From Escherichia phage ECO103 4-12-1: DNA of 64,000 nt. The stretch is from sequence record OR844650; one strand, 5' to 3'. Position numbers and translations under genes: made by a program. The notes below the pieces were generated by a model. That model was not told where the DNA came from. It made no database searches and saw only the letters and a program-made list of their open reading frames with translations. This document shows positions 17,165 through 27,166 of the stretch, in pieces (the stretch's first letter is position 1; each line of letters begins with the position of its first letter).

Positions 17165-20100
17165 ATGAATGAACGAATTATATGGAGTCCAAAAATGACT
17201 AATAATTTTAAGTTTCAACCTACACAGATGGCTGAAGCAGTACAGAAGAAGCTTTTTATTAAAAGATTGCCTGAGTGGATGCAAGGCTTAGAAGATATTC
17301 AAAAAGTCAGTGATGATGTTATTCAACAATGGTTTAATCCGGCTGAAAACGAATTAGTTGACGGCTATATTGGTGATATGGGTTCTCCTGCCGCTGCTGG
17401 TAATATCTTCTTACATGAAAGTACTGTAGCACGTCAACTTTATCAGTTGTCCACTGCTTACGTCTCAAAAAATGATGATTCGACAATTCGTTCAATTCAA
17501 TTTTATGATGATCTAGTTGGATACATGAATCATTATGGAGCACTAACCGATAATGAAAGCCGTTTGTTCAACGGTAAGTTTTATGCATGGACTCCAGCTA
17601 TTAACCCAAATAAAATGAACAATTTTAGCTCATATCTTTGGGATACTAAAAACTCTTATAATATTACTTCACCTGATTACATTGTAATGGAACGTGGAGC
17701 ACTTAATGGTAATACATGGTCACTACAAAACTTTTGGTATACTTTAGGTGAAACATTAGAAGATGGCTCAATATTAACTGAAGAATTAATGCAAGATTCA
17801 CGTTTTATTCGTGCACGTGCACCAATTATTGAATATAATAAAAATATTGAGCTAATTAACTACGGTACAAAATTCCGTGGAACTGTTGATCTGTTCTCTG
17901 ATATTATTAAACCTGAAGATATCGTTCAAAAAGATATTAATAGTGGTATACGTATTGATGGTATTATTCCGCAAGATGGAATGCGTATTCTATTCACCAG
18001 TATTGGTAACAATGGTGAAAACAATAGAATTTATAATGTATATGTGAAAAAAATGCAAGATGGTACTCGTGTTTATGGTTTAGCACTAGATCCAGAAGAA
18101 GAAACCGAATCACGCCCAAGTGGTGAACCTCAAGATGGTGATGTTGTTCTAATCACTAAAGGTAATGAGTATGGTAATAGTTCTATGTACTGGAATGGAT
18201 CTTTGTGGGTTCGTGCACAATCAAAAACTAGTGTTAACGTATTCCCTAAATTCCAACTTTATGATCGTAATGGTATCAAACTTGACAACAGTACTACATA
18301 TCCATCAAGTAACTTTAAAGGTTCAGAGTTGTTTGGTTTTAAAATAAATTACAACTATGCAACTGATAGTGTATATGGATATAACATTGAACTTGGTGAT
18401 TATAATTATTACATTTATGAAAACTTTTTACAATCCCAACGTTATACCTATGACCATCTTGGAAAAGAAGTTGAAATTGATGGTTTATACTATTATAACA
18501 TTATTGATGAAAATAATGAAATGAATCTTCAAACCGATTGGGTTCGTTCAGAAGAGTACTCTAAACAATTTGTAAAACAAACTCCACAAGTCCAACGTAC
18601 TGATATGTATCGTGTATTCAGTACTGTTTATGATATGGAAGTTTTTAAAGAACCAGTTGATGGTATGTATGCATATGTTATTGAAGTTGATAGAACATAT
18701 CAGTACTATAAAGCTGACCGTGAAACTTATCTAGATTGGCATCCAATTACTGGTGATGGTGTTCAGATTGTAAAATATGACCATACATTCGAATTGGCAC
18801 AAAAAGTTTTAGATAATGATTCTGATATTATTGAAGTTGTGGTTGATGGTGTTGATGTGTCCAAATATACCAAAAATGTTTCAAAAGGTCAAGTACAAAG
18901 CATCACTCTAGATAGTACTGTAGAATTGGATGAAGATTCTGTTATTCAAATTAGAACTTATAGCAGTACTGTAACTCCTAATAAAGAATTAGGTGCATAT
19001 GAAGTTCCAATCAACCTACAAAATAACCCATATAATTCTAATATTATATACATTAACCAAGGTGACTACACTTTACATTTTCAGGATATTATTCAAAAGA
19101 ACATTACACGTGGTTCTTCTGATGATTTCAATGACTATGAAGAACGTTTGGCTAAAGGATTGGTTAATAATGGCGTAGGTACTAAAATTATCCAAAATGA
19201 AGCATCTATGCTTCCATTGATGGCACATACTGCAAATGAAGATATTGATTTGTTTGAAGCAACTATGTTTATGCAATCTGAATATTTTAGATTCATTAAT
19301 AAATTTAATACACAAATGCTTCGTATGTATGATGAAAATCCATCAGACTTTTTACAAAATAGTGCTGCAAACATTGTTGATGCAATTTTAACTACTATTA
19401 ATATGGGACGTGATAGTTCATTCCCATTCTATTATGATAATGTTGGAAGTACTTCTGGATTCATTCGTGCATTTATACCACCAACACCACAGTTCTTAGG
19501 TATTCTTCAAGCATATGTACCAGAAAAAGCGACATTCCTCACTGCTGGTAGTAAACCAAGCTGTTATAACATCAGTCATACTGGTATTATTTCCAAAGCA
19601 TACCGTGTTATCAATGGTGTTGATAAAATGGATGATGTTGTATATGAATTAGAAAATAGAATTTTTAATAGTATTGATAATAAATTCAAAGATGTTGATT
19701 ACGTACCAGTATTGAATAGTGATGACCTTTTCCCTACACCATATTTCACTAAAACTGAATATAGTGCTGAAGAGAAACAAACATTATTACTACGTGGATA
19801 CATTAACTTCACCGCAACTAATGGTATCAGTAATAGTACACATGATTATGATCCTAACAATTGGAGAACTTGGAACTATACTGGCACTTATTATGTAGTT
19901 AATGGTCAAAGTACTGAAATTCCTGCACGTGGTTCATGGCGTGCCATTTACACTGACCAATATGGTACATATCGCCCAGCTACCCATCCGTGGGAAATGT
20001 TTGGCTTTACACAACGTCCAACTTGGTGGAACCAAGAATACGAACCAACGGCTGTTCAAGTTGGTGAACGTGATAGTGATGTTGTATATGTATATGAAGC

Positions 20101-27166: not shown

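What the first reader, a model, noticed from the sequence alone, without database searches (positions are those of the whole stretch)
17165..27166. 3333-aa single-ORF giant protein in the baseplate wedge position
An uninterrupted 10-kb ORF follows the gp25-like and gp6/J-like genes, the position normally held by the gp7/I-type wedge protein and fibers. It ends at a strong terminator. The size implies many fused domains (a possible wedge-plus-fiber or host-interaction fusion). No enzymatic motif was recognisable by eye, so the domain content is essentially unexplored.
Basis: partly seen in the sequence, partly recalled or inferred. Interest (0 to 1): 0.55.

Follow-up and report, generated by a model that had tools for sequence, protein, structure and literature searches.

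The report
Giant baseplate protein of jumbo phages
This 10-kb gene of the jumbo coliphage PBECO4 is real and encodes a 382-kDa virion protein that sits where phages normally encode the third baseplate-wedge protein; it belongs to a very large, uncharacterised family whose folds match no solved structure.

Summary
The ORF is real: 17165..27166, + strand, 3333 codons. The likely true start is the ATG at 17195, giving 3323 aa and 381.9 kDa. The window is Escherichia phage PBECO4, a RaK2-like jumbo myovirus. The gene has its own late-promoter-like motif and ends at the strongest terminator in the region. The order gp25-like, gp6-like, giant is kept in relatives at about 25-28% identity and mirrors T4 6-7 and P2 W-J-I. 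Residues 1 to about 2450 form a conserved core. The last ~870 residues vary and evolve fastest. A 216-residue block marks 1,199 protein clusters, almost all giants. No homology to T4 gp7, P2 gpI or other T4 baseplate proteins was detected by sequence or fold, but these tests had low power. Two AlphaFold tiles covering 2,400 residues give confident multi-domain models with only weak matches, mostly phage fibre-anchor and baseplate modules. Best reading: an oversized wedge and peripheral baseplate scaffold occupying the gp7 slot. This is positional and inferred, not shown. The gene is known; its role and folds are not.

The parts
13157..13552 (+). gp25-like sheath-initiator/wedge gene (131 aa), two genes upstream; part of the conserved gp25 - gp6 - giant order
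   Evidence: Pfam GPW_gp25, E 1.2e-8; same order in L003, L004, L007 and PA5oct
13654..17115 (+). gp6/J-like baseplate wedge gene (1153 aa, 131.17 kDa), the presumed partner of the giant protein
   Evidence: PHROG 10646 and PHROG 219 'baseplate wedge subunit'; mass matches phAPEC6 gp244 'baseplate wedge', 131.18 kDa, 21 peptides; homologs in relatives carry Pfam DUF8360
17122..17141 (+). UUCG-loop hairpin plus T-run between the gp6-like gene and the giant gene (terminator-like)
   Evidence: scan: 8 pairs, 5 of them G-C; sequence
17151..17158 (+). CATAAATA, a one-off variant of the T4 late promoter TATAAATA, 37 nt before the ATG at 17195
   Evidence: All 12 ATAAATA sites in the window lie just upstream of gene starts in the correct orientation; exact TATAAATA occurs 2 times against 10.4 expected. 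Promoter function is inferred
17184..17187 (+). GGAG Shine-Dalgarno serving the ATG at 17195
   Evidence: sequence
17165..27166 (+). the ORF as reported (3333 codons plus stop)
17195..27166 (+). probable true coding sequence: 3323 aa, 381.9 kDa, pI about 4.6, virion structural protein (PHROG 10938)
17228..17335 (+). residues 12-47 (numbered from M11): conserved N-terminal helices (LP..MQ..E.IQ..(D/N)..IQ.(W/F)F.P), modelled with low confidence on their own; first candidate for the helix that joins a wedge core bundle
   Evidence: AlphaFold pLDDT 28-59 with helices 20-47; conserved in all family branches. The bundle role is an inference from XM1 gp17, TssG and phiKZ gp128
17372..20722 (+). residues 60-1176: compact, confidently modelled multi-domain N-terminal body, conserved across the family
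21416..21835 (+). residues 1408-1547: the most conserved block of the family (EH..FDN, WNGRLEAPGF, LPNFEKLV, HLIGYQ.R.YL, DFYKGFI.EKGT, then EEWAF.VG.YG just after), mostly helical and modelled worst; second candidate for a partner-dependent interface
   Evidence: conservation peak at every depth; alignment A8; pLDDT 26-45; the block defines 1,199 clusters
21848..24370 (+). residues 1552-2392: chain of confidently modelled alpha/beta and beta domains, the second half of the conserved core
22412..22639 (+). residues ~1740-1815: insertion hot-spot where relatives carry inserts of up to ~1,700 aa, some with FG-GAP beta-propeller repeats
   Evidence: BLAST segment map; FG-GAP_2 hits lie inside the inserts of P0096 and P0102; local dip in conservation
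24572..27163 (+). residues ~2460-3323: lineage-specific, fastest-evolving C-terminal region; not modelled; candidate outward-facing or host-facing part
   Evidence: 56-65% identity against 80-90% elsewhere among close relatives, and not alignable in distant ones; P0102 has a CBM5/12 module in the equivalent region
27170..27196 (+). 12-bp hairpin flanked by A- and T-runs; terminator-like site in the 36-nt gap between the giant gene and the convergent ClpB-like gene (only the + strand passed the scan; use by both strands is inferred)
   Evidence: best terminator-like site in the scan; sequence
34056..34664 (-). 202-aa conserved virion protein that directly follows the giant gene in distant relatives; an associated module member and a rival candidate for a small wedge subunit
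   Evidence: 40-44% identity to the post-giant ORFs of L003 and L004; same position in PA5oct, marked ESI-MS/MS; mass fits phAPEC6 gp251c, 21.95 kDa; PHROG 11259, unknown function

Best explanation
The gene encodes a structural protein of the tail baseplate, probably present in six copies. It takes the place of the gp7/gpI-type third wedge subunit and also builds most of the baseplate periphery as a single chain. Proposed mechanism, with status marked. (i) It is transcribed late as its own unit, running from the promoter-like CATAAATA through the SD and ATG at 17195 to the terminator; these signals are in the sequence and their use is inferred. (ii) One of two conserved helical segments that AlphaFold cannot place on its own (residues 12-47 or 1408-1547) packs against two copies of the 1153-aa gp6-like protein, under the gp25-like sheath initiator, to form the wedge core. 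This is inferred by analogy with T4 (gp6)2-gp7, XM1 (gp16)2-gp17, TssF2-TssG and phiKZ (gp87)2-gp128. (iii) The conserved core of ~2,400 residues forms a rigid multi-domain platform around the hub; the domains are predicted with good confidence, but their location is inferred. (iv) The variable C-terminal ~870 residues and the insertion hot-spot face outward, where they dock the tail fibres and/or touch the cell surface and pass the attachment signal to the wedge ring that triggers sheath contraction (inferred).
For: - Real, intact gene, conserved at full length in 33 phage records and found in 90 isolated jumbo phages.
- Virion protein in three independent proteomes: phAPEC6 gp245, 381.88 kDa, 17 peptides; CBB_236, 21 peptides, next to the wedge protein CBB_237; the PA5oct homolog, marked ESI-MS/MS.
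- It lies immediately downstream of the gp25-like and gp6-like genes. The same order holds in four distant relatives at about 25-28% identity, with fibre or gp10-like genes following. This mirrors T4 6-7-8-9-10 and P2 V-W-J-I-H.
- No other gp7/I-like gene was recognised in the module, and gp244 is the only wedge protein listed in the phAPEC6 proteome.
- The two conserved helical segments have low pLDDT and are flanked by confident domains, as expected for partner-dependent bundle helices.
- Fold hits are weak but share a theme: fibre and tailspike N-terminal anchor or gp10-like modules, plus baseplate proteins.
- The C-terminus evolves fastest, and relatives add CBM5/12, FG-GAP and LamG modules in the variable regions.
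- Peptide coverage is lower than for the gp6-like protein (7.6% against 24.2%), which is compatible with a lower copy number.
Against: - No homology to T4 gp7, P2 gpI or any T4 baseplate protein was detected. hhalign probabilities were 5% or below, with reversed-sequence controls in the same range. Pfam models for gp7 and Tail_P2_I did not hit.
- Which segment, if any, makes the core bundle is undecided.
- Baseplate location has never been shown directly; proteomics places the protein only in the virion.
- In one lineage the gene is not next to gp25/gp6.
- A conserved ~200-aa virion protein travels with the gene and could be the real small wedge subunit.
Confidence: 0.58

Rival explanations
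1. It is a peripheral baseplate or fibre-platform protein but not the gp7 equivalent. A different, smaller protein supplies the third chain of the wedge heterotrimer: for example the conserved ~200-aa virion protein at 34056-34664, or the 273-aa or 749-aa proteins upstream. The giant would bolt onto that wedge, as T4 gp10/gp8 or the phiKZ gp27/gp139 network do.
For: No gp7/gpI homology by sequence or fold. A ~200-aa conserved virion protein directly follows the giant gene in L003, L004 and PA5oct, which is the size of classical gpI-type proteins (P2 gpI 176 aa, XM1 gp17 242 aa). In phiKZ the periphery is made of proteins distinct from the wedge. Weak fold hits include the phiKZ outer-periphery scaffold gp27.
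Against: The ~200-aa protein looks beta-rich and lacks an obvious N-terminal helical segment (sequence; my reading, not modelled). It has no family annotation. In PBECO4 it lies 7 kb away on the other strand. The slot directly after gp6 is held by the giant in PBECO4 and in four of the five relatives examined.
Confidence: 0.22
2. It is a component of the tail appendages and not of the baseplate proper, for example the base or shaft of the baseplate fibres, or of the 'hairy' whiskers seen on the sheaths of phAPEC6 and CBB.
For: These phages carry unusual fibres whose proteins are unassigned. Weak fold hits are to fibre and tailspike N-terminal modules. Relatives carry carbohydrate-binding modules.
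Against: No repeats and no fibre-like periodicity. The N-terminal tile is a compact globular assembly with pTM 0.80. The family is conserved in 90 isolated jumbo phages of many genera, including RaK2 and PA5oct. In RaK2 the long-fibre proteins were mapped to other genes, gp526-534 and gp098. The gene sits in the hub and wedge operon, not in the fibre cluster.
Confidence: 0.1
3. It is a packaged and ejected virion protein with an enzymatic or host-takeover role, like the 3,500-aa virion RNA polymerase of phage N4 (from my own knowledge), and its place in the baseplate operon is incidental.
For: It is giant, virion-associated and has no assigned function.
Against: No catalytic family or motif in Pfam or NCBIfam, even at relaxed thresholds. 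No polymerase or other recurring enzyme fold among the structural matches; the few enzyme entries are isolated weak hits. Tight, conserved linkage to gp25, gp6 and the hub genes.
Confidence: 0.04
4. The single ORF is an artefact: sequencing or assembly errors fused several ordinary genes.
For: A few database records annotate 3-9 ORFs here.
Against: The uninterrupted ORF is present at full length in 33 independently sequenced phage genomes and in many metagenomic contigs down to 25% identity, all 2,800-5,600 aa. The proteomic entry has the full 381.88 kDa mass. The chance probability of such an ORF is about 10^-107.
Confidence: 0.01

Closest known systems
T4 gp7 (1032 aa), the third chain of the (gp6)2-gp7 wedge heterotrimer
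   Same: Encoded directly after the gp6 homolog in a hub, gp25, gp6 operon. A large multi-domain virion protein. If the block at residues 1408-1547 is the core element, both proteins would have their core far from the N-terminus; the gp7 core position comes from my memory of the T4 baseplate structure.
   Different: 3.2 times longer. No detectable sequence similarity. The gp7 Pfam families PF21428, PF21456 and PF21427 do not hit. T4 gp7 is not among the top fold matches. T4 builds its periphery from the additional proteins gp8-gp12, for which no homologs are annotated or detected next to the giant gene.
P2 gpI / XM1 gp17 / Pam3 gp23 / T6SS TssG / phiKZ gp128: small gp7-type wedge subunits with an N-terminal bundle helix
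   Same: Same gene position, W-J-I. The giant has a conserved N-terminal helical segment that is unstable when modelled in isolation, which is where these proteins carry their core-bundle helix.
   Different: They are 176-250 aa or a few hundred aa, against 3323 aa here. Tail_P2_I (PF09684) does not hit. The best gpI profile alignment has P 0.007 and probability 5%, and it disappears against the full family profile.
phiKZ outer baseplate periphery (gp27, gp26, gp139, gp130, gp157), a fibre-attachment platform built from many proteins
   Same: It belongs to a jumbo phage with an oversized baseplate periphery serving as a fibre platform. There are weak fold hits to gp27 and gp87.
CBA120 TSP4 N-terminal region (anchor plus T4 gp10-like XD docking domains)
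   Different: Only about 100 residues match, and below significance. TSP4 is a trimeric tailspike with a beta-helix body; the giant shows no such body in the modelled parts.

Membership tests
gp7 / gpI / TssG-type wedge subunit (third chain of the (gp6)2-gp7 heterotrimer) | Gene lies immediately downstream of the gp25/W and gp6/J homologs in the baseplate operon | tested here: met
   Order in the window is gp25-like, gp6-like, giant. Same order in L003, L004, L007 and PA5oct. Reference orders: T4 6-7 and P2 W-J-I. One exception is lineage L008.
gp7 / gpI / TssG-type wedge subunit | Detectable sequence homology to a known member (Pfam gp7 domains PF21428/PF21456/PF21427, Tail_P2_I PF09684, or profile-profile similarity) | tested here: not met
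   Pfam gives 0 hits even at E up to 5 and across 24 family members. hhalign of the gp7 family against the giant family gives probability 2.8% or less. The gpI family gives probability 5%, P 0.007, on the block only, and P 0.48 on the whole profile. Power was low: the same method fails to link gpI to gp7.
gp7 / gpI / TssG-type wedge subunit | Helix or helix-turn-helix contributing to the core bundle, followed by a trifurcation domain of the gp6/gp7 fold | tested here: inconclusive
gp7 / gpI / TssG-type wedge subunit | Forms a 1:2 heterotrimer with the gp6 homolog; six copies per baseplate | not testable with these tools
   Needs AlphaFold-Multimer, cross-linking mass spectrometry or cryo-EM. 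The only hint is lower peptide coverage than the gp6-like protein.
gp7 / gpI / TssG-type wedge subunit | Physical component of the virion baseplate | tested here: inconclusive
   Virion presence is shown by published proteomics in phAPEC6, CBB and PA5oct. Location within the virion has not been determined; the phAPEC6 tail map is at 25 A with no chain assignment.
Trimeric tail fibre / tailspike receptor-binding protein | Fibrous shaft or beta-helix body, sequence periodicity, and recognised fibre, spike or chaperone domains | tested here: not met
   No internal repeats. No Pfam fibre or spike domain. The modelled 2,400 residues are compact globular domains, pTM 0.80 for the N-terminal tile. 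T4 gp12 and wac do not match. The C-terminal 880 residues were not modelled.
Trimeric tail fibre / tailspike receptor-binding protein | N-terminal anchor or T4 gp10-like docking module | tested here: inconclusive
Tail tape-measure protein | Long, almost entirely alpha-helical protein in the tube lumen, encoded between the tube or chaperone genes and the hub | tested here: not met
   Predicted mixed alpha/beta, rich in beta domains. The gene lies after gp6, not before the hub.
PHROG 10938 ('virion structural protein' of RaK2-like jumbo phages) | Full-length match to the family profile | tested here: met
   E = 0, 5793 bits, residues 11-3330 against profile positions 1-3324 of 3324.

The most novel reading that the evidence does not exclude
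A single 3,300-aa polypeptide, six copies per tail, is both the third wedge subunit and the entire peripheral baseplate. In T4 this takes gp7 plus gp8, gp9, gp10 and gp11, and in phiKZ it takes a network of five or more proteins. The giant would be built from domains with no solved relatives, with a plug-in hot-spot and a variable C-terminus that different lineages load with beta-propellers and carbohydrate-binding modules. That would define a distinct, very widespread baseplate architecture (more than 1,000 protein clusters at 50% identity) for a major clade of jumbo phages.
Probability: 0.4. Interest if true: 0.65.

Novelty: new variant of a known kind. Interest (0 to 1): 0.48.

Why it matters
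The baseplate decides host recognition and triggers genome injection. For the RaK2, 121Q and PA5oct clade of jumbo phages, several of which are phage-therapy candidates, no atomic baseplate model turned up in the literature or PDB searches run here. This one protein would supply about 2.3 MDa of the baseplate if six copies are present, which is my estimate. It marks a family of at least 1,199 clusters, is conserved from coliphages to 490-kb Agrobacterium phages, and has no assigned function or recognisable fold. A defined core, an insertion hot-spot and a fast-evolving C-terminus give concrete targets for cryo-EM model building, host-range engineering and annotation of metagenomic jumbo phages. 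It would also be an extreme case of one giant chain replacing a multi-protein assembly.

Tried and rejected
- **Family libraries:** Pfam on the whole protein, on nine tiles at E up to 5, and on 24 family members for the conserved block gave only noise. My first tiling cut the conserved block at residue 1480/1481, so I repeated it with a centred segment. NCBIfam gave nothing.
- **PDB by sequence:** the single sequence and the family profile both found nothing.
- **'KGT' motif lead:** from memory, DFYKGFI.EKGT resembled the KGT motif of P2 gpI and T4 gp7. Real sequences gave only weak alignments in conflicting registers: gp7 618-694 against residues 1401-1497 (E 0.21), and gpI 85-150 against residues 1432-1501 (P 0.007-0.017). 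Neither survives against the full family profile, and reversed controls score alike. I dropped it as evidence.
- **N-terminal 'LLP + helix' resemblance** to gpI and gp7: not detected by hhalign.
- **Paralogy with the phage's own gp6-like protein:** not detected.
- **Fusion of T4 gp8, gp9, gp10, gp11, gp12, wac or gp53:** not detected.
- **My last homolog search, on P2 gpI,** returned only relatives at 70% identity or more, so the profile stayed shallow.
- **Other readings rejected:** tape-measure protein, ejected enzyme and assembly artefact were considered and rejected (see rivals). The 'Gp44 baseplate wedge' in the phAPEC6 text is a typo for Gp244.
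Full report
The window contains an uninterrupted ORF at 17165..27166 on the + strand, 3333 codons. From the window's base composition (about 7% stop codons per random codon), the chance of such an ORF is about 10^-107. The other two forward frames contain 162 and 606 stops, and GC content by codon position is 0.45/0.33/0.20. The gene follows a gp25-like gene (Pfam GPW_gp25) and a 1153-aa gp6-like gene (PHROG 219/10646), which in turn follow a gp5-type hub-lysozyme. The best terminator-like site in the 13-30 kb region, a 12-bp stem with a T-run at 27170-27196, lies directly after the stop codon, between this gene and a convergent ClpB-like gene.

One correction concerns the start codon, which is more likely the ATG at 17195:
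- GGAG lies 7 nt upstream of it, and nothing comparable precedes 17165.
- The database representative P0001 and PHROG 10938 both begin at that methionine.
- The published mass of the phAPEC6 ortholog, 381.88 kDa, fits 3323 aa and not 3333 aa, which would be 383.1 kDa.

Residue numbers below count from this methionine.

**2. Source and prior knowledge.** The DNA is 100% identical to Escherichia phage PBECO4 (genus Asteriusvirus, 348 kb). It is 98.7-99.9% identical to 121Q, phAPEC6, G17, Sharanji and others. The RefSeq record calls the product 'virion structural protein'.
- **Virion presence.** phAPEC6 virion mass spectrometry lists gp245 (381.88 kDa, 17 unique peptides) right after gp244, 'baseplate wedge', 131.18 kDa, which matches the 131.17 kDa I compute for the gp6-like ORF. 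In CBB, CBB_236 has 21 peptides and sits next to the wedge protein CBB_237. The PA5oct homolog is marked ESI-MS/MS. The protein is therefore in virions.
- **Frameshifts.** The ORF is intact over its full length in 33 phage records and in metagenomic homologs of 2,780-5,638 aa. The few records that split it look like assembly errors.

None of the papers I read assigns a function. The CBB authors used it only as 'the largest gene' to align genomes.

**3. Transcription unit.** All twelve ATAAATA sites in the window (the core of the T4 late promoter TATAAATA) lie just upstream of gene starts in the correct orientation. These include 13589 before the gp6-like gene and 17152 before the giant gene. 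Exact TATAAATA is rarer than chance, 2 sites against 10.4 expected, and the phage encodes a late sigma factor. With hairpins at 17122-17141 and 27170-27196, the giant gene looks like its own late transcription unit. That is an inference from the motifs.

**4. Family anatomy.**
- The homolog search found 198 relatives, from 100% down to about 24% identity, on contigs of up to 512 kb.
- Residues 1 to about 2450 are a collinear conserved core, with insertion hot-spots near residues 150, 460-580, 750, 1590-1815 and 2130-2250. The last ~870 residues are specific to each lineage.
- Conservation peaks at residues 1401-1500 at every evolutionary depth, and residues 101-200 come second in the most distant relatives. 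The C-terminal quarter evolves fastest even among close relatives, at 56-65% identity against 80-90% elsewhere.
- Relatives place FG-GAP beta-propeller repeats in the 1740-1815 hot-spot and a CBM5/12 carbohydrate-binding module in the variable C-terminal region. Laminin-G and other modules also occur.
- A profile of the 216-residue conserved block, run exhaustively against 1.84 billion cluster representatives, found 1,199 proteins (729 at E up to 1e-30). Almost all of the top 150 are giants of 2,500-6,300 aa, with the block 1,300-1,900 residues from the N-terminus.
- Among isolated phages the family occurs in 90 genomes, including RaK2/K64-1, GAP32, CBB, Erwinia, Yersinia and Xanthomonas phages, the PA5oct group, Atu_ph07, Phosso and SCTP-2. 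It is always annotated 'hypothetical' or 'virion structural protein', apart from one 'chitin-binding type-3 domain-containing protein'.

**5. Genomic context.** The order gp53-like, ~700-900-aa protein, hub, gp25-like, gp6-like (Pfam DUF8360 in relatives), giant is kept in four relatives at about 25-28% identity (L003, L004, L007, PA5oct). Fibre genes, or a protein noted as 'T4-like gp10', follow. T4 has 6-7-8-9-10 and P2 has V-W-J-I-H. One lineage (L008) has the gene away from gp25/gp6, though still beside a T4_baseplate-like gene and the portal. A ~200-aa virion protein directly follows the giant gene in the distant relatives. Its PBECO4 homolog (40-44% identity) lies at 34056-34664 on the minus strand.

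**6. Tests of gp7/gpI membership.** The literature defines the wedge as a (gp6)2-gp7 heterotrimer held by a helical core bundle plus a trifurcation domain. Characterised gp7 orthologs range from 242 aa (XM1 gp17) to 1032 aa (T4 gp7).
- **Sequence.** The Pfam models for gp7 and Tail_P2_I do not hit. Neither the T4 gp7 family nor P2 gpI family profiles give a significant hhalign match. The best case is gpI against the conserved block, with P 0.007 and probability 5%. It vanishes against the full family profile, and reversed controls score similarly.
- **Control.** The same procedure fails to connect gpI with gp7. These negatives therefore lower the claim 'is a gp7 homolog' only slightly.
- **Other T4 proteins.** The phage's own gp6-like protein and T4 gp6, gp8, gp9, gp10, gp11, gp12, gp53 and wac show no similarity.

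**7. Structure.**
- The AlphaFold model of residues 1-1200 has mean pLDDT 85.8 and pTM 0.80. It is a compact multi-domain body preceded by conserved, low-confidence helices at residues 20-47.
- The model of residues 1243-2442 has mean pLDDT 74.5. Domains from residue 1552 to 2392 are confident, but the most conserved block (1408-1547, mostly helical) has pLDDT 26-45. Conserved helices that a monomer prediction cannot place are what partner-dependent bundle elements would look like. That is an inference.
- Whole-tile searches are blunt, and I could not search by domain or model the C-terminal 880 residues.

**8. Interpretation.** The protein is best explained as a structural baseplate component that fills the gp7 slot by position and has grown into a single-chain peripheral scaffold. 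The conserved core would build the platform. One of the two helical segments would tie it to two gp6-like chains under gp25. The hot-spot and the variable C-terminus would face outward for fibre docking or cell-surface contact. I put about 0.8 on 'baseplate structural protein' and about 0.58 on the full statement that includes gp7 equivalence. The main rival (0.22) is that it is a peripheral add-on and a smaller protein is the true third wedge chain. Appendage component (0.10), ejected enzyme (0.04) and artefact (0.01) are less likely, for the reasons given under rivals.

**9. Novelty and interest.** The gene and its presence in virions are already on record, so this is not a discovery of a new object. 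New here are:
- the corrected start codon;
- the domain map (core, hot-spot, variable C-terminus);
- the size of the family;
- the conserved gp25, gp6, giant synteny across deep divergence;
- the finding that about 2,400 confidently modelled residues have no significant solved relative.

It is a new variant of a known kind: a wedge-position baseplate protein three times larger than any characterised one. A phage structural biologist would find it worth a cryo-EM study but not astonishing. Interest 0.48.

Noticed in passing
window + strand: 6591, 12613, 12630, 13589, 17152, 35239, 46030; - strand: 61888, 61045, 58176, 57651, 35210: All 12 ATAAATA sites (the core of the T4 late promoter) lie just upstream of gene starts in the correct orientation. 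Exact TATAAATA occurs only twice against about 10 expected by chance, so the motif seems to be avoided outside promoters. This fits the late sigma factor gene at 5662-6501 on the minus strand.
   Followed up: partly
window 27203-29512 (-): A ClpB/ClpA-like protein with two AAA+ domains (Clp_N, AAA, AAA_lid_9, AAA_2, ClpB_D2-small), annotated 'ATP-dependent protease', sits inside the baseplate and tail module, convergent with the giant gene. It is not adjacent to the giant gene in distant relatives. Whether it helps fold or assemble very large virion proteins is open.
   Followed up: no
window 13557-13580, 17122-17141, 27170-27196: Hairpins followed by T-runs come after each of the gp25-like, gp6-like and giant genes. 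The first two have TTCG loops. Together with the late-promoter motifs this suggests separately tuned transcription units within the baseplate operon.
   Followed up: partly
window 34056-34664 (-); L003 21654-22241; L004 26941-27543; L009 18788-19393: A conserved ~200-aa, apparently beta-rich virion protein (PHROG 11259, unknown function; mass fits phAPEC6 gp251c) directly follows the giant gene in distant relatives. In PBECO4 it has moved 7 kb away onto the other strand.
   Followed up: partly
window 39616-45141 (+): A 1841-aa tail-fibre ORF (PHROG 4549) runs across the point that corresponds to the end of the linear PBECO4 record (about window 44528). There the record annotates only small minus-strand ORFs, so the deposited record probably cuts this gene. 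I did not check the rest of the window against the start of the record.
   Followed up: no
phage records OR699183.1, OR699181.1, OR699182.1, MH494197.1 (hits H12, H18, H19, H47): In these records the giant gene is annotated as 3-9 separate hypothetical proteins and aligns in several pieces. These are most likely assembly or sequencing errors and not real gene fission.
   Followed up: no
L008 10001-20623 (protein P0087): One divergent lineage carries the giant gene away from gp25 and gp6, downstream of unrelated metabolic genes and next to a T4_baseplate-like gene and the portal gene. This member also has a Gly_rich_2 domain.
   Followed up: no
window 12653-13141 and 9953-12616: Two lysozyme domains lie side by side in the module: the gp5-like hub protein (Phage_base_V + DUF2345 + lysozyme, 887 aa) and a separate 162-aa lysozyme immediately downstream. 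[quoted passage not shown]
   Followed up: no
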